Origin: an uncultured Gammaproteobacteria bacterium
GTDB taxonomy: Bacteria; Pseudomonadota; Gammaproteobacteria; Steroidobacterales; Rariloculaceae
Length of the DNA: 64,000 bases
Assembly (NCBI GenBank): GCA_963810755.1
Contig: CAWEOP010000001.1
Span: 89,807-153,806 of the forward strand
Reading direction: 5' to 3'
Position numbers and translations under genes: made by a program. The notes below the pieces were generated by a model. The model saw only the letters and a program-made list of their open reading frames with translations, was not told the DNA's origin and searched no databases. This document shows, piece by piece, positions 1 to 46,679 of the stretch (its first letter is position 1; every line of letters starts with the position of its first letter).

Positions 1-72
1 GCCGATCATCGACAGGAACAAGGCGGCGGCAGTCCGGGCGGCCGCGTGCCTCCGCAGCGACGAATGGTTCAT
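1..72 (-). CDS. 5' end of a gene running off the left edge (signal-peptide-like N-terminus MNHSSLRRHAAARTAAALFLSMIG...)
   Basis: Reverse-strand ATG at 72-70 followed by an Ala/Leu-rich hydrophobic stretch. Only 24 codons are visible, so the product is unknown. Confidence 0.25.
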   Translation of the reverse strand, partial: MNHSSLRRHAAARTAAALFLSMIG

Positions 73-338
73 TGGTTCCCCCTGAGCCGAAAGCCCGTTC
101 ACTTTACCACTGCGCCGCGCGGCGGGCGCCGTGCGGACACGACGGGCATCGTGCGGAACGCTGTAGTATCCTTTTCGCACACCGAATCGACCGCTTCGTA
201 AACCCTTCCGACACCGGTCCGGGCGCAGCAAAAAAAGACGCTTCGGGCGGCGAAGAGATCTGAACGACGGCCCGCGGCTTTGTCTAAGCCAATTGCCGCG
301 GTCGGTGCGGTGTGAGTCCAGGGGCTTCGGAGGATTGG

Positions 339-1142
339 ATGGCCGTCTATCAAAATTACTTGCGTGATCGAGCATCGAAGCTCGTCATCCTCGCGATCAT
401 CGCGCTCATCATTCAAGTCATCTACACCGCGTACGTGCGGCCGACCGCCGAAGCGTGGCGTTCCGAGCAACGTGCGATCGCGGCCCGGACGCCGGGCTAC
501 AGCCCGGCGCGCTCCATCTGGGTGATCATTCAGGATCCCGAGCAGGAAGCGACCATCATCGTCGCGATCTGGTCGATGATCCTGTCGGTCATGCGCTTCC
601 GCGAGCTCAAGGCACAACGCGCCCTGCTCAGCGAGGGCTACATGCAGCAGGCGCCGGGCGTCGTGATCTTGCCGAGCGACGCGCGCGAGTATCTGCGTAC
701 CTTCGAGAGTCTGCCGCCGGCGAAGCGCGATTCGGTGCTGCCGCGCGTGCTGGCAGCGGCGCTCAAACGCTTTAGCGCCACGGGCAACGTGCAGGATGCA
801 TCGCAAACCGTGCACAACGTCTGCGAGAGCGAGAACAACCGTTTGGACGCGGAGCTCGCGATCTTGCGCTTCAGCGTGTGGGTGACGCCCGCGCTCGGGT
901 TCGTCGGAACCGTCCGCGGTATCGGCTTGGCGCTGCAGGGCGCGGAGCTCGCCGTGAAGGGCGACACCGGTGCCGTCACGAGCGGCCTCGGCGTGTCGTT
1001 CAATTCGACGTTGGTCGCACTCACGCTGAGCATCTTGCTGATGTACACGCTGCACGAGATCCAGCTCGCTCAGGAGCGGCTCGTGCTCGACGCCGAGAAC
1101 TACGCCGACGAGGAGCTGATCAGCCGCTTGCACAGCGTTTGA
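339..1142 (+). CDS. MotA/TolQ/ExbB proton-channel family protein
   Basis: ORF 312..1142. The ATG at 339 follows GGAGGA (329-334). Four predicted TM helices with a ~100-aa loop between TM2 and TM3. The C-terminal core TPALGFVGTVRGIGLAL...FNSTLVALTLSILLMY resembles the MotA/ExbB channel helices. Confidence 0.7.
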   Translation: MAVYQNYLRDRASKLVILAIIALIIQVIYTAYVRPTAEAWRSEQRAIAARTPGYSPARSIWVIIQDPEQEATIIVAIWSMILSVMRFRELKAQRALLSEGYMQQAPGVVILPSDAREYLRTFESLPPAKRDSVLPRVLAAALKRFSATGNVQDASQTVHNVCESENNRLDAELAILRFSVWVTPALGFVGTVRGIGLALQGAELAVKGDTGAVTSGLGVSFNSTLVALTLSILLMYTLHEIQLAQERLVLDAENYADEELISRLHSV

Positions 1143-1183
1143 TTTCGAGCGGCGCGACGCCGCGTGTTTCTGAGGGGGAACAC

Positions 1184-1606
1184 ATGACCGTTTCACGGGC
1201 CGACCGGCTAGCGCTCGCGCTTCTCGCCGTTGCGGCGTTCGCGGCGTCGAGCGCCGTGAACGCGCACCACTCGTTCGCGATGTTCGACAACGAGAATCAG
1301 ATCAAGCTCAAGGGCACCGTCACGGACTTCCAATGGACCAACCCGCACGTCTACATCGAGGTCGACGCCTCGAACGTGTACGCGGACGACAAGGCCGTGA
1401 AGAATTGGACGATCGAGTGCGCGAACCCGGGAATCCTCAATCGCATCGGTTGGAAGTTCAACATGGTCAAGGCGGGTGACGAGGTCACTCTGATCGTCGC
1501 CCCGCTTCGCAGCGGCGAGCCCGGTGCGCTGCTGAAACAGATCACGTTGCCCGACGGCAAGGTGTTCGCGAACGGCGGTCCCGCCGGCCCCGCGAACATC
1601 CAGTAG
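1184..1606 (+). CDS. small secreted protein, DUF6152-like (copy 1)
   Basis: ATG at 1184. Signal peptide ends ...SSAVNA, then HHSFAMFD. FQWTNPH motif lies ~20 aa later. Three paralogs in the window share both motifs. The family name is from memory and needs an HMM check. Confidence 0.8.
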   Translation: MTVSRADRLALALLAVAAFAASSAVNAHHSFAMFDNENQIKLKGTVTDFQWTNPHVYIEVDASNVYADDKAVKNWTIECANPGILNRIGWKFNMVKAGDEVTLIVAPLRSGEPGALLKQITLPDGKVFANGGPAGPANIQ

Positions 1607-1684
1607 CGAGGTCGACGCCGATGCGACCGACGAATCCGACTGTGCCCGGGCCGAACCGCGGCACGCACGCGCCGGCCCCACGTC

Positions 1685-2473
1685 GTGGCGGCGGCGCTGC
1701 TCGCGCTCGTCGCGCTGCCGGCCGTGCACGCGCAATCACCCGACCGCAGCCGCTCGAGCGAATCCGCCGCCGGCCAGCCTGACTTCAGCGGCACATGGGA
1801 GCGCTGGACGCCGCCGCGCGACCCGAACGCGCCGCCGCGCGGCACGCCGGGCGCCGGGCTCGGGCCGACGTTCGGCGGTACGCCGCCGCCGCTCAAGCCC
1901 GAGTACGCCGCCGCGTACGAGGCCGAGGTCAAGACGCGTCAGGAAGCGGAGCGGCGTGGCGAGCCGATCCCGAGCGCGAACGCGCAGTGCATCCCCGAGG
2001 GAATGCCCGCGATGATGATCGCGTTGTTCCCAATGGAGGTGCTGCAGACGCGCGGCCAGCTCACGATCGTGCAGGAGGCTTTCAGTCAGATCCGCCGCAT
2101 CTACATCGGCGAGGACCCGCCCGCGATCGAGGATGCGGAGCCGTCGTTCTTCGGCCACTCCGGCGCGAAGTGGGACGGCGATACGCTCGTCGTCGAAACC
2201 GTCGGCATCAAGGAGAGCGTGCGCTATCGCAATGCGCCGCACTCGGACCAAATGCGCATCCGCGAGCGCATGCGCGCGCTCGACGCGAATCGCTTCGAGG
2301 ATCAGATCACGATCACGGATCCCGTGTATCTCGCGAGTCCGTGGTCTTGGACCTGGACGTATCAGCGAAAGCCCGGGTACAAGATGTACGAGTACGTCTG
2401 CGAGGACAATCGCGAGTTCGTCGATCCGAACACCGGGGCTCAACGGATGCGATTCAGGGACAAGGCGGAATAG
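1685..2473 (+). CDS. secreted protein of unknown function, partner of the DUF6152-like gene (copy 1)
   Basis: GTG at 1685 and signal peptide LLALVALPAVHA. Motifs QCIPEGMPAMM, KWDGDTLVVET, PHSDQM and YEYVCEDN are shared with four paralogs in the window. Confidence 0.8.
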   Translation: MAAALLALVALPAVHAQSPDRSRSSESAAGQPDFSGTWERWTPPRDPNAPPRGTPGAGLGPTFGGTPPPLKPEYAAAYEAEVKTRQEAERRGEPIPSANAQCIPEGMPAMMIALFPMEVLQTRGQLTIVQEAFSQIRRIYIGEDPPAIEDAEPSFFGHSGAKWDGDTLVVETVGIKESVRYRNAPHSDQMRIRERMRALDANRFEDQITITDPVYLASPWSWTWTYQRKPGYKMYEYVCEDNREFVDPNTGAQRMRFRDKAE

Positions 2474-2488
2474 GTTGGAGAGGTTCGC

Positions 2489-2935
2489 ATGCGAGAACGA
2501 ATAATTAGAACGTCGCTGGCCGTCATGCTGCTCGCGTGCGTCGCAGCGGGCGCGCACGCGCAAACGCTCACGCAGGCGAAGCTCGAGGCCTGGCTGTCCA
2601 GCTACGGCACCGCGTGGGAAATGCGCGACGCGGACCTCGCCGTGCGCATCTTCACCGAGAACGCGACCTATCGGGAGATGCCGTTCGAGGCGCCGAAAGC
2701 CGGGCGCGCGGGTATTCGCGAATACTGGGCAGGAGTGACGGCTGATCAGCGCGACGTGCAGTTCGACTCGAACGTGATCGCGGTGAACGGCAACACGGGC
2801 GTCGCGCACTGGTCCGCGAAGTTCAAGCTCGCGTCGAGCGGCGCGACGGTCGAGCTCGACGGCGTGTTCGTGCTCGAGTTCGACGCGAGCGGCCTCTGCT
2901 CGGGCTTGCGCGAATGGTGGCACGTGCGCGAGTGA
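2489..2935 (+). CDS. secreted SnoaL/NTF2-like fold protein
   Basis: Signal peptide (LAVMLLACVAAGAHA), ~125-aa mature protein. The pattern W..AW...D......F.E.A.Y...P...........YW is typical of NTF2-like/DUF4440 proteins. Confidence 0.6.
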   Translation: MRERIIRTSLAVMLLACVAAGAHAQTLTQAKLEAWLSSYGTAWEMRDADLAVRIFTENATYREMPFEAPKAGRAGIREYWAGVTADQRDVQFDSNVIAVNGNTGVAHWSAKFKLASSGATVELDGVFVLEFDASGLCSGLREWWHVRE

Positions 2936-3032
2936 GCGCGCGCGCCCAGTCGGCGGTATGACGGCCGCATGCACTTGGCGCGGAACTTGCTGATGTCCCC
3001 GTCGAGCTCCGCAAGCAACGACGAGGTCAATC

Positions 3033-3827
3033 GTGAGGAATGCCGCTTGGACCGTGATTCTGCTCGCCGCCGTGTGCGGATCGATTCTCCTCGAGATTCT
3101 CTCGGCGGGGTCCGGCCCGGTGGCCGCAACGTCCGGCTTTTTCTTGGTTTTTTGCGGAACACTGCTGATGGCGCGGCTCAGCCACTCGGCCGACGTGCTG
3201 CGCAGGCTCAAGGAAGCGCTGCTCGAACTGCGGCACGAGCGCGCGGCTGCGGCGGACGATGATCTGCGTCTGCAATCGTTCCTCAAAGCGGCAAGCTTTT
3301 TCCGCTACGGCAATATTCGGCCGGCCGAGGAGGCCGCGCGCAACATTTCGCGACCGGTTCTCCGGCGCGGCACGCAGCTCGTGCTCGACGGGTTCCAGCG
3401 GCCGCAGCTCGCGCTCGCGATGCAGCGACAAATCGCCGAGGAGCGCGAGCGCCTCGTGAGCCCGGTCGATCTGCTGCGCGCGATGTCGGGTTACGCGCCG
3501 ACGCTCGGCATGCTCGGCACGCTGCTCGGTCTCTCGCAGATGCTGTTCGGCGTCGGCACGGGCGACGTGGCGAGCATGGGAGCATCGATGGGCTTCGCGA
3601 TGACGACGACGGTCTACGGCCTCGTGCTCGCGAATTTGATCTTCAAGCCGCTCGCCTCGAAGATCGAGCAGCGCAACCGCCGTCAACTAGCGCAGAGCGT
3701 CGTCGATCTCCAGGCCGTGATGCTGCTCTTCGAGCGCCAGCACCCCGAGTACATCCGCGCAGTGATCAACGACACGCGCGAGCAGTACGTGCCGCCGCCC
3801 GCCGAGCTCGCGCGCGCGGTCGGCTGA
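3033..3827 (+). CDS. MotA-like stator/proton-channel protein
   Basis: GTG at 3033 with GAGG upstream. Two N-terminal TM helices, a cytoplasmic loop, then YAPTLGMLGTLLGL and MTTTVYGLVLANLIFKPLASKI, which match the MotA TM3/TM4 signatures. Confidence 0.8.
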   Translation: MRNAAWTVILLAAVCGSILLEILSAGSGPVAATSGFFLVFCGTLLMARLSHSADVLRRLKEALLELRHERAAAADDDLRLQSFLKAASFFRYGNIRPAEEAARNISRPVLRRGTQLVLDGFQRPQLALAMQRQIAEERERLVSPVDLLRAMSGYAPTLGMLGTLLGLSQMLFGVGTGDVASMGASMGFAMTTTVYGLVLANLIFKPLASKIEQRNRRQLAQSVVDLQAVMLLFERQHPEYIRAVINDTREQYVPPPAELARAVG

Positions 3828-3833
3828 GCCGCG

Positions 3834-4631
3834 ATGCGTTTTCGCAACCTCGCGCAAGGCGCTGACGACGGCGACGCCGAGTCGACCGCGTTGCTCGACG
3901 TCGGTTGGACCTCGGAGGATCGCGAGGACAACTGGCTGATCTCGTACGCCGACCTCTTGAGCGTGATCTTCGCGATGGTCGTGCTGCTCTTCGGGCGAAT
4001 GATGACGGTGAGCCCGCCGCTTGCCGAAGCCGACGAGCTCGACGCCGCCAGGTACGCCGAGCCGCCTAGCAGGATGATCACCGTGGACGGCCGTGCGGCC
4101 GCCGCGTCGACGCTTGCTGACGCGCCGACGCCTGCCGACGTGCCGACAGCTGCCGACGAGCCGACGCCCGAGGATCGGCTTGCGTCGCTCGTCGAGCAGC
4201 GCTTTCCCGGCCAGATCGAGACCCGGCGGCGCGAGCGTGGGCTCTCTCTCGCGATCCCGGCCGTCGCGTTGTTCGATTCCGCGCGGGCGCAGCTGCAGGA
4301 CTCCGCGGTTCCGCTGCTAGGCGACCTCGCGGCCACGTTGCGTGAGGTTGGCGACGCGCGGATCTCCGTCGAGGGGCATACCGACGACGTGCCCGTGCAG
4401 GGCGGCGTGTTCGACTCGAATTGGGATCTCGCCGCCGCGCGCGCCAATGCAGTGACGCGCTATTTACTGGCTCAGGGATTCACGCCGGCGCGACTGCAAT
4501 CGGTGAGCTACGCGGATACACGTCCCGTTGCGGACAACGCTACGGCCGAGGGCCGGGCCGCGAATCGCCGAGTCGAGCTGCAGATCGAGTTCGCGGCCGA
4601 CGCGCCGACGACGCTAGCCGCCGCGGACTAG
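3834..4631 (+). CDS. MotB/OmpA-family protein (stator peptidoglycan anchor)
   Basis: Starts 6 nt after the MotA-like gene. TM segment NWLISYADLLSVIFAMVVLLF carries the conserved Asp. OmpA-like C-terminus VEGHTDDVP...NWDLAAARANAV...NRRVELQI. Confidence 0.85.
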   Translation: MRFRNLAQGADDGDAESTALLDVGWTSEDREDNWLISYADLLSVIFAMVVLLFGRMMTVSPPLAEADELDAARYAEPPSRMITVDGRAAAASTLADAPTPADVPTAADEPTPEDRLASLVEQRFPGQIETRRRERGLSLAIPAVALFDSARAQLQDSAVPLLGDLAATLREVGDARISVEGHTDDVPVQGGVFDSNWDLAAARANAVTRYLLAQGFTPARLQSVSYADTRPVADNATAEGRAANRRVELQIEFAADAPTTLAAAD

Positions 4632-4677: not shown

Positions 4678-5460
4678 TCAGCGTGCGTCCGGTGTGACCG
4701 TGAGCTTGCCGTCGACGACGGGGTTGCGGTCGTTCTCGTGGCAGTCGCCGTGCACCATTCGATCGACTCCGGGCACGTGCTCGTACGGAATGGTCACCTT
4801 CCAGGGTTTCGCGAGCGCCGCCGGATCTTCCATCGTGAGCTCGTCTTCGATTCGCGAGGGGCTCACCATCCGGATTCGCTCTTTGTAGTGCGCGTTCTCG
4901 CTCAGCACGGGTAGAAAACGGCCGGCCTGCACCGCGATCGTGTCGACGACGAGCGTGTCGCCTTCCCAGTGTCCGACCGAGTCGCCCCACGGCGTGGCCC
5001 AGATGTCGTCCGGGCTCGGATGCGCGCGGCCGTCGGTGTAGATGTGCCGGACCTCGCGGCCGCCCGCGATCACGGCCGTCTCCTCGGGTGTGATCAGAAA
5101 CTGCAGCACCCAGGGCGACTCCATCATGTACGGGAACGGGAAACCGCATTCCTTGTCGTTCGCGCGCTCGGGGGCGTTGCGGACCGCGTTGACTCTAGCG
5201 GCCCACTCGGGCGTGTACGGCGCGCCGTTGAGCAGGTGCCGCGCGCGATCCGACGGATTCGGCGACCGGCCCGAAATGCTGAGCTCGTTCATGACGCCGT
5301 CGGCCGCGATCCAGATGCCCGTCCAGTTCGGCAACGCGGCGAAGGTCCGCGCGCGTGCGTCGCCGTTCGGCTGGGCGCCCGCCGCGCCGGCGAGCAGAAT
5401 CGCGGTCACGGCCGCTCGTGCGGCGATTCGCGCAGCGACTCGCGCGAAAACCGGGCTCAT
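4678..5460 (-). CDS. secreted partner protein of the DUF6152-like gene (copy 2)
   Basis: Start MSPVFARV... at 5460 overlaps the upstream stop as ATGA (5457-5460). Signal peptide present. Motifs ECGFPFPYMM, GHWEGDTLVVDT and HGDCHENDRN. Confidence 0.8.
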   Translation of the reverse strand: MSPVFARVAARIAARAAVTAILLAGAAGAQPNGDARARTFAALPNWTGIWIAADGVMNELSISGRSPNPSDRARHLLNGAPYTPEWAARVNAVRNAPERANDKECGFPFPYMMESPWVLQFLITPEETAVIAGGREVRHIYTDGRAHPSPDDIWATPWGDSVGHWEGDTLVVDTIAVQAGRFLPVLSENAHYKERIRMVSPSRIEDELTMEDPAALAKPWKVTIPYEHVPGVDRMVHGDCHENDRNPVVDGKLTVTPDAR

Positions 5461-5834
5461 GGTGTCTTCTCGAGCGACTTGCCGCCCGCTCCCGTCGCCG
5501 AGACGAACACGCCGGCCTTGAGCGTGGCGTCCCGCGTGGGATGAATGATCACCTCGATCGGGTCGCCGGGCTTCAACGTGCCGGGCCGCCAGCCGTGTTG
5601 GAACAGCTGCATCGGCGCGCCCATCTCGACGCTCCATTCTTCTTGGGCGCCGTCCGCGCCGGCCACGGTCATCTGAATCCAACAGTGCGGATTCGTCCAT
5701 TGATATTCTTTGACTGTGCCCTTGAGCGTGAGGGACTTGTCGCTATCGAACATCGCGCCCGAGTGGTGCGCGGCGGCGGGCGCCGCGATCAGCAACAGCG
5801 CAACGACGAAGCAGACTGTGCGGCCCGCCGGCAT
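5457..5834 (-). CDS. small secreted protein, DUF6152-like (copy 2)
   Basis: Signal peptide ...IAAPAAA, then HHSGAMFD, followed by YQWTNPH. 125 aa. Confidence 0.85.
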   Translation of the reverse strand: MPAGRTVCFVVALLLIAAPAAAHHSGAMFDSDKSLTLKGTVKEYQWTNPHCWIQMTVAGADGAQEEWSVEMGAPMQLFQHGWRPGTLKPGDPIEVIIHPTRDATLKAGVFVSATGAGGKSLEKTP

Positions 5835-26687: not shown

Positions 26688-27056
26688 CTACTCCCAAGCG
26701 TTGTGCAAGGCCTTGACCACGTCGTTCTCGCCGAGCTCGAGCTGGCGGGCCGCGAGCACGAGGTGCTCGACATGCGGCTCGATCTGCTCCATGCGCTTCG
26801 CAAGGGGCGACTGCGTGCGAGTGGGCTTCGCAACCGTCATCGGCTTGCCGCGGTGGCGCTCGAGCACGCCCTCCGTTTCGAGCAGGCTATACACCTTCGA
26901 TACCGTCATCGGATTGATCGCGTGCTGCAGCGCCAGGGCGCGAATGGACGGGAGCTCAGTACCCGGCGGAAGCTGCCCGCTCGCGGCCATTCGGCGGATC
27001 TGCTCCGAGAGCTGCCGGTAAATCGGCACGCCCGAGTGGGGCTTCAGTATGAACAC
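26688..27056 (-). CDS. GntR-family (YtrA-like) transcriptional regulator
   Basis: PIYRQLSEQIRRMAASGQL.PGTELPSIRALA.....NPMTVSKVY..LE..G wHTH. Short C-terminus, as in the YtrA subfamily. Confidence 0.85.
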   Translation of the reverse strand: MFILKPHSGVPIYRQLSEQIRRMAASGQLPPGTELPSIRALALQHAINPMTVSKVYSLLETEGVLERHRGKPMTVAKPTRTQSPLAKRMEQIEPHVEHLVLAARQLELGENDVVKALHNAWE

Positions 27057-27239
27057 GGCGTCCCCCGCCTAAGTGCACTAGTACAATAATGCACTTATGC
27101 CGCTCGGTCAATTGGAAGAGCTGGGCGGCGCTCGAATTTGCGACGCGTATCACGCGACGCCGGCGCAAAGCGTCCGATCGATGCGTCAAATGCGCGCCGC
27201 CGTCGCAGCGCAACAACGCGCGGAACCCGGAGTGGCGAG

Positions 27240-28395
27240 CTAGAACCCTTCCGGCCAGAGCTTCTTGTAGGCCGCATTCGCGGCCCAGCGCTGCGTCACA
27301 CTCGGGTGAAACACGTCGCCGGCTTTCGGCGTCCGCGCCTTCGCGCCGAGATTGAACGGCGGTTTCTTCCAAGGCGCGTGGAAGTCCTGTCCGTAGCGCG
27401 TGAGGTCGAGCACGCGCACCGGCGGCGTCGCGAACAGCACGCCGACGCCCGCGAGCTTCTGCATCATCCAGTCGAGTGCGATGTCGGAGAGGCCGGACTC
27501 GCGCGCGGCGTAGCCGCCGCCGACGTCCGAGTGCGCGCCGATGAACCACACTTGCTCGACGCGCTTGTCCTTGTCCCAGCGCGTCACGGGGAAGTCGCGG
27601 CGGCGCTCGTCGAGCGCCATCGCGTGAAAGCCGCGCTCGACGGCCGGGCTCAACTTCGTGTCGACGAAGCTGAAGAAGTCCTTGCGCGAGCCGCGCACGT
27701 AGTTCGGCACGCCCATGGACCCGACCGTGTCCCAAACGGCGACGGACTTGATCGGCACGTTCGCTATCGAGATCCGTCTTGCGCAGCGCGACGGCCGCGA
27801 TCGCCTCGCCCGCGAAATCCGCGATCGCGTTCAGCAGCGAGCTCAGCTTCCTGTCGCCCTGAAAGACGAGGCCCTTGCACTTGAACCAGGCTGCGAGACC
27901 GCGCAGGTACGCCTCCGACTTGTCGTCCGGGTCGTACTTACGCGGGTTCAGCAGGCCGACGCCGGAAATCAATCCCGCGAGCGCCCGCGCGGTGTACGCG
28001 CCGCGGCTGAAGCCTACGATGTGGATCGAGTCGCCGGGTGCGTAGTTGCGCGAGACGAACGTGTAGCCGCGGATGATCCGGGCGATCACGCCCGCGCCGA
28101 ACACGCCGCCGAGCACCTTCATCACGGCGTTCTTCGAGTCGCCGACGCCGTGGATGTACTTCGAGACTTGCGCGAGCCCCGCCGCTGCGCCGTACAGCAT
28201 CTCGGTTTCGTTGCGCAGCGCCTGGGTCTCGGCGGTCGCTTGGCCGCGCAAGCTCGCGAACAGCTTGACGACGTTGGTCACGCCGTCGTCGAGCTCGGCG
28301 TCGGTCTGCGCGGCGCCATCGATGTCGGAGGTGCTCGGAGCATCCGCCGGGCCGTTCCAGGTTCCGTCTGCGCAAAAGACGATTTGCTTCGGCAT
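27240..28395 (-). pseudogene. DUF2235 (Tle1-like alpha/beta hydrolase) domain protein, frameshifted
   Basis: MPKQIVFCADGTWNG..., GFSRGAYTARALAG, then after a frame change near 27765-27775, VWDTVGSMG and GAHSDVGGGY. Confidence 0.7.
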
Positions 28396-28557
28396 CGCGG
28401 GCTCCCGGACGCGCTGTGGGATGGCTCGTACACTAGCACGCGATCGCGCGACGCAGCGTGCAGCACTCACGCTTTAGCCGCGCATCGATTGCCGCTACGC
28501 TATTGCGTAGGCTGAGCACTCGTGACCGTGACTTCCCTGATTCTCTCGGAGCATAGA

Positions 28558-29316
28558 ATGAAGAGGACCTTTCTCGGGGCGGCCGCTACGGCGGCGATCC
28601 TGGCCGCGGGATGTGGGCCGTCGCAGCCCCCGCCCGTCGACGCACCCGTCGATTCCGCGGCGCAGGCCTGGACGGCGCTCGCGAAGCTCCCGAACTGGAG
28701 CGGTGTGTGGGAGGTCGACTGGCGCAACGCGCGCAAAGCGGCGCCGCGCCCGATGATGAAGCTCACGCCCGAATGGCAAGCGAAGGCCGACGCGTATCGG
28801 GCGGCGCAGGCCAAGGGCGAGAACCTGCAGAGCGAGGCAGCTAACTGCGTGCCGCCGGGCCTGCCGGGGATCATGAGCCAACCGTATCCGATTCAGTTTC
28901 TCTACCAGCCGGACAAGATCGTGATGCTGATCGAGACGTTCATGCAGTTCCGGCAGATCTGGATGGACGGCCGTCCCCATCCCGACGACCCGGACCTCAC
29001 GTTCTACGGCGACTCGATCGGCCATTGGGAAGGGGATACGCTCGTCATCGACACTGTCGGATTGAGCCCGCAGAACCGAATCGCGCCCGGCATTGGGCAC
29101 GGCGATCAGTTGCACGTCGTCGAGCGGATCCGCCGCGTCGACGCTGACTGGCTCGAGATCGAGACCACGCTCACCGATCCCGAGGTGCTCGCGGAGCCAT
29201 ACACGAGCACGGCCTCCTTCAAGCATCTCGACGACGAGATTCGCGAATACATTTGCCTCGAGAACAACCGCGACAGCGCCGACGAGAACGGCCGTCCCGG
29301 CATCGAGTTGGAGTGA
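28558..29316 (+). CDS. lipoprotein partner of the DUF6152-like gene (copy 3)
   Basis: ATG at 28558 and lipobox ILAAGC. Motifs NCVPPGLPGIM, GHWEGDTLVIDT, GHGDQL and EYICLENNRD. Confidence 0.85.
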   Translation: MKRTFLGAAATAAILAAGCGPSQPPPVDAPVDSAAQAWTALAKLPNWSGVWEVDWRNARKAAPRPMMKLTPEWQAKADAYRAAQAKGENLQSEAANCVPPGLPGIMSQPYPIQFLYQPDKIVMLIETFMQFRQIWMDGRPHPDDPDLTFYGDSIGHWEGDTLVIDTVGLSPQNRIAPGIGHGDQLHVVERIRRVDADWLEIETTLTDPEVLAEPYTSTASFKHLDDEIREYICLENNRDSADENGRPGIELE

Positions 29317-29318
29317 TC

Positions 29319-29726
29319 ATGAGCACGCATCGATTCCTCGCGCTCGCGGCCTCGGCCGCGCTCGTCGCCGCCGCCGCACCGGCGCTCGCGCACCATTCCA
29401 CGGCGATGTTCGACTTCGCTAAGACCATCGAGATCACGGGCACCGTGCAGGACTTTCAATGGACGAACCCCCACACGTGGACGAACGTCGCGGTCGAGGG
29501 CGGAGACTCCGCCGGCGTCTACGGTCTCGAGGGCATGAGCCCGAGCTACCTCGCGCGCAACGGTTGGACCAAGCGCACGCTGAATCCCGGCGACAAGCTC
29601 ACGTTCGCAGTGCATCCGCTCAAGGACGGACGCAAGGGCGGCTTCATGGTCAGCGCGACGCTCGCGGACGGCACGGTGCTCTACAACTTGCCGCGCCGTG
29701 CGGAGCCGTCGGACGAATTGCGCTAA
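29319..29726 (+). CDS. small secreted protein, DUF6152-like (copy 3)
   Basis: ATG lies 2 nt after the upstream stop. Signal peptide ...AAPALA, then HHSTAMFD and FQWTNPH. Confidence 0.85.
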   Translation: MSTHRFLALAASAALVAAAAPALAHHSTAMFDFAKTIEITGTVQDFQWTNPHTWTNVAVEGGDSAGVYGLEGMSPSYLARNGWTKRTLNPGDKLTFAVHPLKDGRKGGFMVSATLADGTVLYNLPRRAEPSDELR

Positions 29727-29763
29727 CAAGGTCCCGCGGTAGCGGGCGACGGCGACGGGCGCG

Positions 29764-31807: not shown

Positions 31808-32220
31808 TCACTTCGGTTGGCTAGACCCCAATGGCCGCGGCGGCGGCGCGTCGCCGGGGCCGAGCACCGTGCCGTCGGCGAGCGTGATCGTCACGAGCGA
31901 GCCGTTCGGCCGGCCGTCGAGCAGCGGGTTCACGATGACGACCACGCTGTCGCCGGGCTGCGAGCGACGTCTTCTTCCAGCCGGTGCGCGCCATCATGTT
32001 GGGGCTGCCGCACTCGACGCCCCAATCGGTCGCCTGACCCTTTTCGTCGGACACCGTCACCTGGATCCACGCGTGCGGGTTCGTCCACTGAAAATCCTTG
32101 ACGGTCCCCGTGAGAGTCACTTTCTTCGTGCGGTCGAAGCTCGCGAACGAATGATGCGCGAACGCGGGTCGACGCGCCCGCGGCGACGGCGGCGGCGATC
32201 AAGATGGCCGTGATTCTCAT
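31808..32220 (-). pseudogene. DUF6152-like gene (copy 4), two frameshifts
   Basis: My translation gives MRITAILIAAAVAAGA.. then, in another frame, ..AFAHHSFASFDRTKKVTLTGTVKDFQWTNPH.., and a third frame for ..QPGDSVVVIVNPLLDGRPNGSLVTITLADGTVL. Confidence 0.7.
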
Positions 32221-32261
32221 GCGTAGTCCTCGCGGCGCCACTGCGACGCTTCCGGGGGCGC

Positions 32262-33087
32262 TCACTCGCGACGCGGATTGTCGCCGCAAAAGTACTCGAG
32301 CATGTCGATGTCGGGGCGGCGCTGGAAGTAGTGTTTGAGCACGACCTTCTCAGTGTAGTACTTCGGGTCGTCGATCGTGAGCTCGTCCTCGAGCAGCTCG
32401 CCGTTCGCGACGAGCCGGAAGCGTTCGACGAGATGCAGCTGCGTCGCTGAGCGGAAAGCGCGGGTCGTCGTCGATGCTGCTGACTTTCGCGTTCGAGCCG
32501 ACGCCGTTCGCCGCGCGAGCCTTGCCGTTCGTGCCGACGGTATCGACGACGAGCACGTCGCCGTCCCAGGTCCCGATCGAATGGCCGTTCCACGTCGCGA
32601 CGATCTCGTCTTCGGGCGGGTGGCCGCGGCCGTCGGTGTAGATCCGCCGCGGGATGCCGCTCGCTTCGCGCACGATCACGATCTGGTCCGGCGCCTCGAG
32701 CAGCTGGAGCGGGAAGATGCCGATCTCCCACATGTGAAACACGGGGCCGCCGGGCGTGCATGCCGTGAAGTTGCTGTGATCGTTCAAACGCTGCGATTCG
32801 GCCGCGCCGGCCGCGGTGAACGGCGGATTTCTGCGGCCACGGCGTGTTCGACCACGGCGCGGGCCCGGCTGGGTCCTCGAAACGTGCCGAGTGGAACCCA
32901 CACGCCCGTGAACCCGCGTTCGGACGCGGTGAGCTTGGACGCGGCCGCAGGCGAAGGCGCGCTGCCGGCACCGTGTCGCCCGCGCCGCGCGGGCCGCCGC
33001 AGCCCGCGACCGCCAGCGCCGCCGCAACGAGCAGCGCTTGGCCGTATGCGCGAGGCCGCCGCGTCCGCGACGTCGTGCGGCCGCTAC
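32262..33087 (-). pseudogene. partner gene (copy 4), multiply frameshifted, start codon not identifiable
   Basis: Fragments in different frames: lipobox-like ALLVAAALAVAGC, ..ACTPGGPVFHM.., GTWDGDVLVVDT, then QLHLVERF...MLEYFCGDNPRRE with the stop at 32264-32262. Confidence 0.6.
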
Positions 33088-33837
33088 CTAATGGCAGTAG
33101 CGATGATGCCGACACTCGACCGACCGCAGCGTGAGGTGCGTTTCGAGCGTTACGAAATCGCCCAGTCGGCTCGCCTGTGAACGGATCGAGGTTCGGGACT
33201 TTCGCGCGCATCACGACGGAGTGCGTCCCCGGCGGGAGCCGGTCGAGCATCAACCAATAGCCGCCCTGGAGCGCGGACAGGAGTCCGCCGTAGCCGTCGT
33301 TCTGAATCGGGCCGGCGTCGACGATGAACTCTTGCGGATGCGGTCGACTTTGACCACGTGCGACGCCCAGTTCCCGACGGGCCTGCCGTCGAGCCAGACG
33401 AACACGCTCTTGATGCCCTTGATGAAGTTCTCGTTGATGAGTTGCCGCGCGCAGCGAACCTCGGCGCACGGATCGAAGAGGGTCCAGAGATACGTCGCGA
33501 CCGGCAGCAGCACGTACTCGCCGCGCGGAACGTTGGCGCTGCCCACGAACGGATCGAGCCCGGACCCCTCGGCGAAGAATACCGGGCCGCGCACGTCGCC
33601 CAGATCCGCGAACTCCCCGGTCGTGTCGCTGAGAATCTCGGGATGGTCGAACGCCCACTGCCACCAGCGAGTTCCCCCACTCGGTGATCGAGCGCCCGGT
33701 CGCGGCGAGGATCTCGTCGTTCGAGAGCTCGCGCAAGCGGCTCCCGAGTGGTCCGCGTTGGCGGCGAAGCCGAGCAGAGAGCAGGCGAGGAGAAGAAGGA
33801 TCGAGCAGAAACGGCTACGGAAACCGAGCGCGCTCAT
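33088..33837 (-). pseudogene. secreted hypothetical protein, frameshifted
   Basis: MSALGFRSRFCSILLLLACSLLGFAANA signal peptide from the ATG at 33837. Coding-like pieces lie in three frames. Probable stop (TAG) at 33090-33088. Confidence 0.45.
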
Positions 33838-45854: not shown

Positions 45855-46679
45855 TTACTTCTTCTCGGTAGCGGGCTCGACCGCGGTCTTCTCGAGCTGC
45901 TCCATCCAGATGCCTTCGGAGCAGTTGTCCTCGAGCATCACGTTCTCGATCTTGCGGTAGAGCGTCGTGACCCGGTAGTCCTTGTCGACGTACATTCCGG
46001 GGTCGGTGATGTACATCTCGTTGACGAGCAGGGTGCCCTCGACCTTCGGCGGCCGATCGGGGCGAAGCCCCGTGATCTTGAACGCGCTCGCGTCCTTCAG
46101 ATACCAGCGCTCGACGATCTTCATCTGATCGCTGTGCGGCCAGCGCGGCGCGTACCACTCGGTGATCTTCGTGGTCTCGATCACGAGCGTGTCGCCTTCC
46201 CAGCGGCCGACGGAGTAGCCGACGCGTTGGCTCGGGAAGTCGTCGGGCGGCTTGCGCCCGTCGAGGTAGATACGCCGCGACTGCTTCGCGAGCTCCGACA
46301 GCAGCGTGATCCGGTTCGGCTGCTGCACGATCTCCATCGCGGCGCCGCCGATGCCCCACATCACGGTGGGCATCCCGGGCTCGACGCAGCTGCCGTTCGC
46401 CTCGAGATTCTCGACGTCGTACTTCGCGATGAACTCGTCGGTGATCTTCTTGCCTTCCGCCGTGCGCGTCGGCTCGATCGGAATGAAGAACGGCGCGCCG
46501 AGGCGGTCGTGCTGCACCATGCCCCAGACGCCTTCGAGATTCGGCGGGTCGGCCGCGTACGCGTTACCGAGCACCAGCAGCAGGGTCGGCGTCGAGATGA
46601 GTAAGCGCTCCGTAAGAGCGCGACAAACACCGCGCGTCTCGCGCCGGCGAGCTCCGGGATGCATGCCCGTCCCCCTCAT
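45855..46679 (-). CDS. secreted partner-family protein (copy 5, no adjacent DUF6152-like gene)
   Basis: Motifs SCVEPGMPTVM, GRWEGDTLVIET, PHSDQMKIVERW and EDNCSEG. The start is uncertain (M1 or M6). Confidence 0.75.
   Translation of the reverse strand: MRGTGMHPGARRRETRGVCRALTERLLISTPTLLLVLGNAYAADPPNLEGVWGMVQHDRLGAPFFIPIEPTRTAEGKKITDEFIAKYDVENLEANGSCVEPGMPTVMWGIGGAAMEIVQQPNRITLLSELAKQSRRIYLDGRKPPDDFPSQRVGYSVGRWEGDTLVIETTKITEWYAPRWPHSDQMKIVERWYLKDASAFKITGLRPDRPPKVEGTLLVNEMYITDPGMYVDKDYRVTTLYRKIENVMLEDNCSEGIWMEQLEKTAVEPATEKK

What the first reader, a model, noticed from the sequence alone, without database searches (positions are those of the whole stretch)
29319..29726. DUF6152-like proteins would mature to an N-terminal His-His next to an invariant W-T-N-P-H: a candidate histidine-brace-type metal site
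Seen in the sequence:
- All four copies have an AxA-type signal-peptidase site immediately followed by HHS: VNA|HHSFAMFD, AAA|HHSGAMFD, ALA|HHSTAMFD and AFA|HHSFASFD.
- An invariant (F/Y)QWTNPH lies about 20 residues later.

Established knowledge: proteins whose mature residue 1 is His, such as LPMOs, CopC and X325-type proteins, use the free amino group plus His side chains to bind copper.

Inference: these ~110-aa periplasmic proteins may be metal-binding, copper or otherwise, and possibly redox-active. The conserved-Cys partner protein could be their substrate-binding or electron-transfer subunit.
Basis: partly seen in the sequence, partly recalled or inferred. Interest (0 to 1): 0.65.

Follow-up and report, generated by a model that had tools for sequence, protein, structure and literature searches.

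The report
Secreted His-His-tipped OB-fold protein pair
This gene belongs to a very large, unstudied family of small exported bacterial proteins that almost certainly begin with two histidines once their export signal is removed; this looks like a new kind of metal-binding site, and the protein works with an equally unstudied barrel-shaped partner.

Summary
Window 29319-29726 (+) encodes a 135-aa DUF6152 protein (Pfam E 9e-30). The window has three more copies, one of them frameshifted. All carry AxA|HHS and (F/Y)QWTNPH.

- **Conservation.** In 489 distinct family sequences His1, His2, Pro27 and His28 (mature numbering) are 100% conserved and Glu47 is 99%. In all 149 diverse representatives the HH follows a signal-peptide h-region directly, with Ala at -1 in 141.
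- **Fold.** AlphaFold (pLDDT 89.7) gives an OB-fold, not the beta-sandwich or cupredoxin fold of LPMO, CopC or YcnI. No solved relative exists and no paper mentions the family.
- **Geometry.** Model coordinates were not retrievable, so convergence of the histidines is supported only indirectly, by coevolution: residues 4-8 contact 26-30, and His28 lies opposite Glu47.
- **Partner.** The neighbour is a large family with no Pfam model, a calycin/FABP-like barrel with two invariant Cys. It lies beside about 90% of DUF6152 genes, is translationally coupled to them here, and is naturally fused in one representative.
- **Context.** Neighbours are TonB-dependent receptors, catabolic regulators and enzymes, not copper-homeostasis genes.

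Best reading: an N-terminal-amine metal site, probably Cu(II), on a new scaffold, working with a ligand-binding partner. Metal binding is untested.

The parts
29319..29726 (+). DUF6152 gene, copy 3 (the finding). 135-aa precursor and 111-aa mature OB-fold protein.
   Evidence: ORF and translation. Pfam PF19649 E 9e-30. AF2 pLDDT 89.7, pTM 0.82, strand-strand-strand-helix-strand-strand order. Only weak OB-fold matches in the PDB.
29319..29390 (+). Sec-type signal peptide (M1-A24) ending in A-L-A. No twin-arginine and no lipobox.
   Evidence: Read from the sequence. Family-wide, -1 is Ala in 141/149 and -3 is Ala in 103 or Val in 21. An h-region is present in 147/149. The median HH offset is 26.
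29391..29399 (+). His25-His26-Ser27 of the precursor, predicted to be residues 1-3 of the mature protein.
   Evidence: H1 489/489, H2 489/489, S3 485/489.
29460..29474 (+). W48-T-N-P-H52 (mature W24-H28), in the loop between strands 1 and 2.
   Evidence: P27 and H28 489/489, N26 467/489, W24 465/489. The loop position comes from the AF2 secondary structure.
29529..29531 (+). Glu71 (mature Glu47), at the end of strand 3, cross-strand from His28.
   Evidence: E47 485/489. The coevolution ladder 30-45, 32-43, 34-41 gives the register i+j=75, which places 28 opposite 47.
28558..29316 (+). Partner gene p3, a 252-aa lipoprotein (lipobox LAAG|C) with a calycin/FABP-like beta-barrel and two invariant Cys. 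Its stop lies 2 nt before the DUF6152 ATG.
   Evidence: No Pfam, NCBIfam or PDB sequence match. At least 6,806 homologues, none with a Pfam domain. AF2 pLDDT 80.9. Foldseek finds CRABP/FABP at E 2e-4 and TMt 0.5-0.6. Invariant C79 and C215.
1184..1606 (+). DUF6152 copy 1 (VNA|HHSFAMFD).
   Evidence: E 1.4e-28.
1685..2473 (+). Partner p1, downstream of copy 1, with a type I signal peptide.
   Evidence: partner HMM E 4e-112.
5457..5834 (-). DUF6152 copy 2 (AAA|HHSGAMFD).
   Evidence: E 1e-33.
4678..5460 (-). Partner p2, downstream of copy 2. Its ATG overlaps the stop of copy 2 (ATGA).
31808..32220 (-). DUF6152 copy 4 (AFA|HHSFASFD), interrupted by two frameshifts.
   Evidence: HMM hits in two frames, with the signal peptide in a third.
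32262..33090 (-). Partner p4, upstream of copy 4, also frameshifted. The start is approximate.

Best explanation
The gene encodes a Sec-exported OB-fold protein of 111 residues. Signal-peptidase I cleavage after A-x-A leaves His-His-Ser as its free N-terminus.

His1, His2 and His28 (the H of WTNPH), backed by Glu47 and Asp8, form one mononuclear metal site that uses the free alpha-amino group. The most likely metal is Cu(II). The site would be of the histidine-brace, CopC or YcnI type, but built on an OB-fold instead of a beta-sandwich or cupredoxin.

The protein works in the periplasm as a unit with the adjacent calycin-like barrel protein, which holds a small, probably hydrophobic ligand. 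The two-gene module is often placed beside TonB-dependent receptors and catabolic genes. It therefore probably binds or chemically modifies a compound taken up across the outer membrane, rather than serving copper homeostasis.

Shown here:
- family membership
- invariance of the residues
- a conserved signal-peptide context
- the OB-fold
- gene pairing and a natural fusion
- the calycin-like fold of the partner

Inferred:
- cleavage at exactly that bond
- convergence of the histidines
- metal binding and which metal
- physical complex formation
- the ligand
For: 1. The exposed His-His is a family rule. In 149 representatives that are less than 50% identical to each other, HH sits directly after a hydrophobic h-region. 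Ala is at -1 in 141, a small residue is at -3, and the median offset is 26. In longer members the DUF6152 domain is always first after the signal peptide, and any extra domain or membrane anchor is C-terminal.
2. H1, H2, P27 and H28 are conserved in 489/489 sequences, E47 in 485, S3 in 485 and D8 in 462. The rest of the protein averages about 48% column identity.
3. The AF2 model is confident (pLDDT 89.7). The N-terminal ten residues are ordered but less certain (mean 75), and residue 7 forms a beta-bridge.
4. mfDCA on 472 sequences reproduces the OB-fold strand ladders. It places N-terminal residues 4-8 against residues 26-30 and 85, and H28 opposite E47.
5. From established chemistry, stated from knowledge: a free N-terminal His chelates Cu(II) through NH2 and N-delta (the histidine brace, as defined in the PMC10952591 abstract). 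An NH2-Xaa-His sequence is itself a strong Cu(II) motif. YcnI shows that a DUF with an N-terminal His can turn out to be a Cu(II) site (PMC8424229).
6. Partner linkage. 98 of 127 DUF6152 genes in 86 loci have a partner within 300 nt, and most of the rest within 650 nt, in several gene orders. Here the stop and start are 2 nt apart or overlap as ATGA. P0332 is a signal peptide-DUF6152-linker-partner fusion with no internal signal peptide.
7. The partner has a calycin/FABP-like barrel.
Against: - No metal, cleavage site or complex has been measured.
- The His-His-His geometry could not be read from the model.
- The DCA support is indirect and weak (ranks 23-57), and the invariant histidines carry no covariation signal.
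- The fold is unrelated to every known histidine-brace protein.
- No copper-homeostasis family (CopC, CopD, PCuAC, multicopper oxidase, CusRS or CueR types) is among the 25 commonest flanking families. TBDR (15/174), cytochrome c (7), DUF6644 (6), MarR (5), IclR and MBL-fold proteins are. DUF1775/YcnI, by contrast, does neighbour copper genes.
- No Fur box was found.
- Invariant His and Glu residues could equally be a non-metal ligand-binding or acid-base site.
- The 80 anchor loci were retrieved with an AHHS-containing pattern, which inflates the conservation count. The 150 representatives were not retrieved that way.
Confidence: 0.45

Rival explanations
1. There is no metal. The invariant His1, His2, His28, Glu47 and Asp8 cluster is an organic-ligand-binding or acid-base site, or the docking surface for the calycin partner. 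The pair would act as a periplasmic carrier or processing module for compounds imported by TonB-dependent receptors.
For: The neighbours are TBDRs, MarR/IclR/GntR/TetR regulators, and MBL-fold, Rieske/VanA-like, SnoaL, tannase and SDR genes. These are typical of organic-compound catabolism rather than metal handling. The partner has a fold used for hydrophobic small molecules. OB-folds are classic ligand-binding scaffolds.
Against: Absolute conservation of two consecutive histidines exactly at the predicted mature N-terminus, with the domain never placed internally, is hard to explain unless the free amine matters. That pattern is the hallmark of N-terminal metal sites.
Confidence: 0.3
2. It is a non-redox periplasmic metallochaperone or metal-buffering protein for Zn, Ni, Co or Cu. 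It would be functionally like CusF or ZinT, passing a metal or metal chelate between a TonB-dependent receptor and an inner-membrane importer.
For: It is a small periplasmic OB-fold like CusF. It has an N-terminal His-rich end. TBDRs are the commonest flanking family. JGI labelled one member 'CusF'.
Against: - hhalign to E. coli CusF gives 3% probability, and the CusF Met/Met/Trp site is absent.
- No metal-responsive regulators, ABC or ZIP/CopD-type importers or efflux genes recur nearby.
- The adjacent TBDRs match no metal-specific NCBIfam subfamily above its cutoff.
- A calycin partner is not expected for metal relay.
Confidence: 0.15
3. The protein is not cleaved before His-His, because the signal is uncleaved or cut elsewhere. 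The histidines would then be internal and the N-terminal-amine idea would fail.
For: No SignalP run and no experimental N-terminus was available. One representative has Pro and one has Val at -1.
Against: The A-x-A|HH context is conserved in about 95% of representatives while the upstream sequences are otherwise unconserved. There is no lipobox Cys. The h-region length and offset are typical of signal peptidase I substrates.
Confidence: 0.03

Closest known systems
CopC (Cu(II)-site type) and YcnI/DUF1775 ('monohistidine brace') periplasmic or extracytoplasmic copper proteins
   Same: Both are small exported proteins in which signal-peptide cleavage creates an N-terminal His. The amine and imidazole of that His, with one further His or a carboxylate, bind Cu(II). 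Like DUF1775, this family was a DUF with a conserved N-terminal His (PMC8424229). Here His1, His28, Glu47 and Asp8 offer the same ligand types.
   Different: - The fold is OB, not cupredoxin or Ig-like.
- There is no sequence or profile similarity.
- A second invariant His sits at position 2.
- There are no copper-homeostasis neighbours.
- There is an obligatory calycin-like partner.
Lytic polysaccharide monooxygenases and X325/Bim1 (canonical histidine brace)
   Same: An N-terminal His is exposed by signal cleavage. A distant second His is a candidate for the T-shaped brace as defined in PMC10952591.
   Different: - No FnIII/Ig-like sandwich and no flat substrate-binding face.
- No carbohydrate-active gene context.
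- No structural match in the PDB.
- About 110 aa against about 170-250 aa.
CusF (periplasmic OB-fold Cu(I)/Ag(I) metallochaperone)
   Same: It has the same compartment, size and general OB-fold topology. Its mature N-terminal region is also His-rich.
   Different: hhalign probability is 3%. The CusF His/Met/Met/Trp Cu(I) site is absent. CusF is encoded with the CusCBA efflux genes, whereas DUF6152 is encoded with a calycin-like partner.
NH2-Xaa-His (XH) and ATCUN (NH2-Xaa-Xaa-His) N-terminal Cu(II)/Ni(II) peptide motifs
   Same: A free amine with His at position 2 satisfies the XH motif. This is general knowledge and was not tested here.
   Different: ATCUN needs His at position 3, and position 3 here is an invariant Ser. 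The conserved distal His28 and Glu47 imply a folded-protein site, not just a peptide motif.
Calycins (FABP/CRABP, lipocalins, YceI-like), as a comparison for the partner protein
   Same: An antiparallel beta-barrel with N-terminal helices. Foldseek gives E 2e-4 to 1e-3 and TM 0.5-0.6 on the target.
   Different: - About 100 residues larger.
- No sequence or Pfam match.
- Two invariant Cys lie in low-confidence loops.
- Exported or lipidated.

Membership tests
Pfam DUF6152 (PF19649) | Score above the Pfam gathering threshold (27 bits). | tested here: met
   103.1, 99.3 and 115.7 bits for the three intact copies. The frameshifted copy 4 matches my family HMM in two pieces.
Histidine-brace copper proteins (LPMO AA9-AA17, X325, CopC, PmoB, YcnI) | His is residue 1 of the mature protein, after signal-peptide removal. 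| tested here: met
   This is predicted, not measured. A-x-A|HH is conserved with an h-region in 147/149 representatives. No SignalP run or mass spectrometry was available.
Histidine-brace copper proteins | A second His whose N-tau, with the NH2 and N-pi of His1, gives a T-shaped three-nitrogen site. | not testable with these tools
   Candidates His28 and His2 are invariant. Model coordinates are not returned by the tool. DCA gives only indirect proximity: 4-30, 8-26, and 28 opposite 47.
Histidine-brace copper proteins | A beta-sandwich (FnIII/Ig-like) or cupredoxin-like fold, or detectable homology to a known member. | tested here: not met
   AF2 gives an OB-fold. Foldseek finds only weak matches to OB-fold domains, mainly lysyl-tRNA synthetases (listed best E 4e-3, none at or below 1e-3). 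phmmer against the PDB finds no relevant hit.
Histidine-brace copper proteins | Binds one Cu ion, with type-2 EPR. | not testable with these tools
   This needs purified protein with a native N-terminus.
CusF family | Sequence or profile similarity, and the His-Met-Met(-Trp) Cu(I) site. | tested here: not met
   No CusF Pfam hit at E<=0.01. hhalign probability 3%. No conserved Met pair.
ATCUN motif | His at position 3 of the mature chain. | tested here: not met
   Position 3 is Ser in 485/489 sequences.
NH2-Xaa-His Cu(II) motif | His at position 2 with a free alpha-amine. | tested here: met
   His2 is present in 489/489 sequences. The free amine depends on the predicted cleavage.
Calycin superfamily (partner protein) | An 8-10-stranded up-and-down barrel enclosing a ligand cavity. 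| tested here: inconclusive
   AF2 pLDDT is 80.9 with about 10 strands. Foldseek to CRABP/FABP gives E 2e-4, TMq 0.35 and TMt 0.5-0.6. There is no sequence-level support.

The most novel reading that the evidence does not exclude
DUF6152 and its calycin-like partner form a previously unrecognised two-subunit periplasmic copper enzyme. An OB-fold subunit would carry a histidine-brace-type Cu centre made from the processed N-terminus (His1/His2) and His28. It would oxidise a hydrophobic small molecule presented by the barrel subunit. That would make it a soluble, small-molecule counterpart of LPMO or pMMO chemistry, widespread in soil and freshwater Gram-negative bacteria.
Probability: 0.12. Interest if true: 0.9.

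Novelty: new variant of a known kind. Interest (0 to 1): 0.6.

Why it matters
N-terminal-histidine copper sites underlie LPMOs, particulate methane monooxygenase, CopC and YcnI. All known examples sit on sandwich or cupredoxin folds.

DUF6152 would put such a site on an OB-fold. The family is very large: 13,974 clusters at 50% identity in Steroidobacteraceae, Sphingomonadaceae, Caulobacteraceae, Acidobacteriota and Verrucomicrobiota. It has no paper, no structure and no annotation.

It comes with an equally large partner family that has no Pfam model at all. Cultured hosts exist (Novosphingobium humi, Croceibacterium atlanticum), so the hypothesis can be tested directly.

Even if no metal is bound, the pair is an uncharacterised, very common periplasmic module linked to TonB-dependent uptake.

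Tried and rejected
- **Homology to LPMO, CopC, X325 or YcnI.** Rejected. There is no PDB sequence hit, the model is an OB-fold, and Foldseek finds only weak OB-fold matches, mainly to lysyl-tRNA synthetases.
- **CusF membership.** Rejected. hhalign probability is 3%.
- **Literature.** The terms 'DUF6152', 'PF19649' and 'WTNPH' each returned zero papers.
- **Reading His-His distances from the AF2 model.** Not possible. The tool returns no coordinates and none appear in /data. I substituted mfDCA. Its couplings for H1, H2, P27 and H28 are identical artefacts of invariance and were discarded.
- **Exact-sequence lookup of the window's own protein.** Not on record.
- **A fixed third gene.** Rejected. 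No family exceeds about 9% of flanking genes. The ExbB/MotA-MotB-SnoaL arrangement in the window recurs only in a close relative, L005.
- **Specific TBDR subtype.** All NCBIfam hits are far below their cutoffs.
- **Fur box.** None in the window at up to 3 mismatches.
- **Partner as an electron-transfer subunit.** No haem, Fe-S or cupredoxin motif and no Pfam hit.

Full report
**What is there.** Window 29319-29726 (+) is an intact 135-codon ORF. It has a GGAG 5 nt upstream of its ATG, inside the last codons of the preceding gene. It reads MSTHRFLALAASAALVAAAAPALA|HHSTAMFDFAKTIEITGTVQDFQWTNPH... and matches Pfam DUF6152 (PF19649) at E 9e-30. NCBIfam has no model for it.

- 1184-1606 (+), VNA|HHSFAMFD
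- 5457-5834 (-), AAA|HHSGAMFD
- 31808-32220 (-), AFA|HHSFASFD

The three intact copies are only about 44% identical to each other. The fourth is split over three reading frames, and so is its neighbour. A Tle1-like gene at 26956-28470 is also frameshifted. I cannot say whether copy 4 is a pseudogene or a victim of assembly indels.

**Is the His-His really the mature N-terminus?** No SignalP and no experiment were available, so I used family statistics.

A profile search of 1.84 billion representatives found 13,974 clusters at E<=1e-3. I looked at the 149 best representatives of normal size, which are mutually less than 50% identical:
- The residue before HH is Ala in 141, Gly in 4 and Ser in 2.
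- Position -3 is Ala, Val or Ser in 133.
- 147 have a strongly hydrophobic 10-mer just upstream.
- The median offset of HH from the annotated start is 26.
- The 23 longer offsets are explained by over-extended start calls.

There is no twin-arginine and no lipobox. In longer family members the DUF6152 domain is always the first thing after the signal peptide. Extra material, whether a membrane anchor in P0313 and P0357, an extra domain in P0317 or the partner domain in P0332, is always C-terminal. This is the pattern expected if a free alpha-amine is required.

**Conservation.** I pooled 489 distinct sequences: the homologue searches, the 150 representatives, and 127 genes in 86 genomic loci.

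| Residue (mature numbering) | Conserved in |
|---|---|
| His1, His2, Pro27, His28 | 489/489 |
| Ser3, Glu47 | 485 |
| Gly58 | 487 |
| Gly67 | 486 |
| Asn26 | 467 |
| Trp24 | 465 |
| Asp8 | 462 |

One caveat applies. The 80 anchor loci were retrieved with patterns containing AHHS and QWTN, so they are biased. The representatives and the extra paralogues found by HMM are not.

**Fold.** AlphaFold2 on the mature sequence with a 141-sequence alignment gives pLDDT 89.7 and pTM 0.82. The element order is five core strands (13-23, 30-35, 42-47, 69-77, 83-90) with a helix (51-56) between strands 3 and 4, plus a short sixth strand (96-98). That order is an OB-fold.

The first ten residues average pLDDT 75, and residue 7 makes a beta-bridge. 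Foldseek against the PDB finds nothing at E<=1e-3. The best hits (E about 4e-3, TMq about 0.5) are mainly lysyl-tRNA synthetases, with IF1 and a few others, i.e. proteins with OB-fold domains. phmmer against all PDB sequences finds nothing relevant. The protein is therefore not a relative of LPMO, X325, CopC, PmoB or YcnI, which are sandwich or cupredoxin folds. A profile comparison with E. coli CusF, the known periplasmic OB-fold copper chaperone, gives 3% probability.

**Do the histidines converge?** The structure tool returns no coordinates, so this key test could not be done directly.

As a substitute I ran mean-field DCA on 472 sequences (Meff 242). Its top pairs reproduce the OB-fold ladders:
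- strands 2/3: 32-43, 30-45, 34-41
- strands 4/5: 77-83, 74-84, 75-87
- strands 1/2: 17-35
- strands 1/4: 19-70

The signal is therefore real. The strand 2/3 register (i+j=75) puts invariant His28 opposite invariant Glu47. For the N-terminal segment the best couplings are 12-87, 4-85, 7-77, 6-54, 10-81, 4-30 and 8-26. Residues 4-8 therefore pack against the WTNPH loop, the start of strand 2 and strand 5. That leaves His1 and His2 within a few residues of His28. The evidence is suggestive, not conclusive. The apparent H1/H2-P27/H28 couplings are artefacts of invariance and were ignored.

**The partner.** Every copy in the window has a neighbour of about 255 aa:
- p1, 1685-2473 (+)
- p2, 4678-5460 (-)
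- p3, 28558-29316 (+)
- p4, about 32262-33090 (-)

The stop of p3 is 2 nt before the ATG of copy 3. The ATG of p2 overlaps the stop of copy 2. The partners have signal peptides, or a lipobox in the p3 lineage. They have no Pfam, NCBIfam or PDB sequence match. At least 6,806 homologues exist, none carrying a Pfam domain. Two Cys (C79 and C215 of mature p3) are invariant, along with W33, R114, D126, W139, E171, D189 and E217.

AF2 (pLDDT 80.9) gives N-terminal helices and a barrel of about 10 strands. Both Cys lie in low-confidence loops. Foldseek's best matches are CRABP, CRBP and FABP (E 2e-4 to 2e-3, TM 0.5-0.6 on the target). That is a calycin-like small-ligand barrel, though the match is weak.

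**Linkage.** Of 127 DUF6152 genes in 86 loci, 98 have a partner within 300 nt. In 53 the order is partner then DUF6152, in 30 it is DUF6152 then partner, and 15 are on opposite strands. Most of the remainder lie within 650 nt, and about a dozen have no partner at all. The loci come from Steroidobacteraceae, Sphingomonadaceae, Caulobacteraceae, Acidobacteriota, Verrucomicrobiia and others. Annotated contexts agree.

P0332 (385 aa) is a fusion of signal peptide, DUF6152, a hydrophilic linker and the partner. It has no second signal peptide, so it looks like a genuine fusion and argues for physical cooperation.

**Wider context.** Among 174 genes flanking the pairs, the commonest Pfam families are:
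- TonB-dependent receptor, 15
- cytochrome c, 7
- DUF6644 (a 4-TM membrane protein), 6
- MarR, 5
- IclR and MBL-fold

No copper-homeostasis family appears among the 25 commonest. The TBDRs next to copy-3 orthologues match no specific NCBIfam subtype.

In the window, copies 1 and 2 sit in an ExbB-like, DUF6152, partner, SnoaL, MotA/ExbB, MotB/OmpA block. A relative, L005, conserves that block. Copy 3 is followed by a convergent Rieske/VanA-like oxygenase and an MBL-fold gene. There is no Fur box. The context therefore points to uptake and catabolism of organic compounds rather than metal homeostasis. YcnI/DUF1775, by contrast, neighbours copper genes (PMC8424229).

**Interpretation.** The sequence facts are two invariant histidines exactly at a conserved cleavage site, a domain that is never internal, and an invariant distal His paired with an invariant Glu. 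They are best explained by a metal site that uses the free amine.

From general knowledge, NH2-His (a brace through the amine and N-delta) and NH2-Xaa-His are both strong Cu(II) binders. The histidine brace is defined that way in the PMC10952591 abstract.

I therefore favour a Cu(II) site of the CopC or YcnI type on a new scaffold, acting with a ligand-binding partner (confidence 0.45). The rivals are:
- a non-metal ligand or acid-base site (0.30)
- a non-redox metallochaperone (0.15)
- a wrong cleavage site (0.03)

**Novelty.** The family itself is catalogued as a DUF, but nothing is published on it. The proposed site, the OB scaffold and the obligatory calycin-like partner appear to be undescribed. 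I rate it a new variant of a known kind (N-terminal-His metal sites), with interest 0.6.

The boldest reading still open is a two-subunit periplasmic copper oxidase for hydrophobic small molecules. I give it about 0.12 probability, and it would be of high interest if true.

Noticed in passing
window 31808-33090 (-): The fourth DUF6152/partner pair is broken by at least three frameshifts in about 1.3 kb: two in copy 4 and one or more in p4. It could be a decaying duplicate or the result of assembly indel errors.
   Followed up: partly
window 26956-28470 (-): A T6SS Tle1-like phospholipase (DUF2235) gene is also split by a frameshift near 27760. This suggests the assembly carries indel errors. 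Related contigs come from long-read soil MAGs.
   Followed up: partly
window 45861-46583 (-): A fifth, divergent member of the partner family (25-32% identity; partner HMM E 9e-35; it keeps the C..PGMP, GRWEGDTLV and NC motifs). No DUF6152 gene lies next to it. It sits upstream of a weak-NIPSNAP protein and a MASE1 hybrid histidine kinase, so the partner family can occur alone.
   Followed up: partly
window 28558-29316 and its homologues P0365-P0484: The partner family has at least 6,806 clusters at 90% identity, none with a Pfam domain and no NCBIfam model. It is a large family that the domain databases have missed.
   Followed up: partly
protein P0332 (385 aa, from the representative search): A natural fusion of signal peptide, DUF6152, a hydrophilic linker and the partner domain. 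P0313 and P0357 carry C-terminal membrane anchors, and P0317 carries an unknown C-terminal domain of about 140 aa.
   Followed up: partly
protein P0219 (4,832 aa): A giant protein matches only the C-terminal third of the DUF6152 profile (positions 83-124), 28 times. It is probably an unrelated repeated beta-hairpin or Ig-like module rather than a true family member.
   Followed up: no
window 312-4628 (+) and L005 9198-13530: Two MotA/ExbB-family genes, a MotB/OmpA-like gene and a SnoaL-like gene are interleaved with DUF6152/partner pairs 1 and 2. A related genome conserves the arrangement, but it is not seen family-wide.
   Followed up: partly
L087 5328-6303 (Novosphingobium humi plasmid) and 6 of the 115 flanking genes scanned: DUF6644, an uncharacterised protein of about 165 aa with four transmembrane helices, recurs next to the pairs. 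It may be a membrane component of the system.
   Followed up: partly
window 29727-29763: A short GC-rich inverted repeat (CCCGCGGTAGCGGG) lies right after the stop of copy 3, between it and the convergent Rieske oxygenase gene. It may be a shared terminator. No T-run follows.
   Followed up: no
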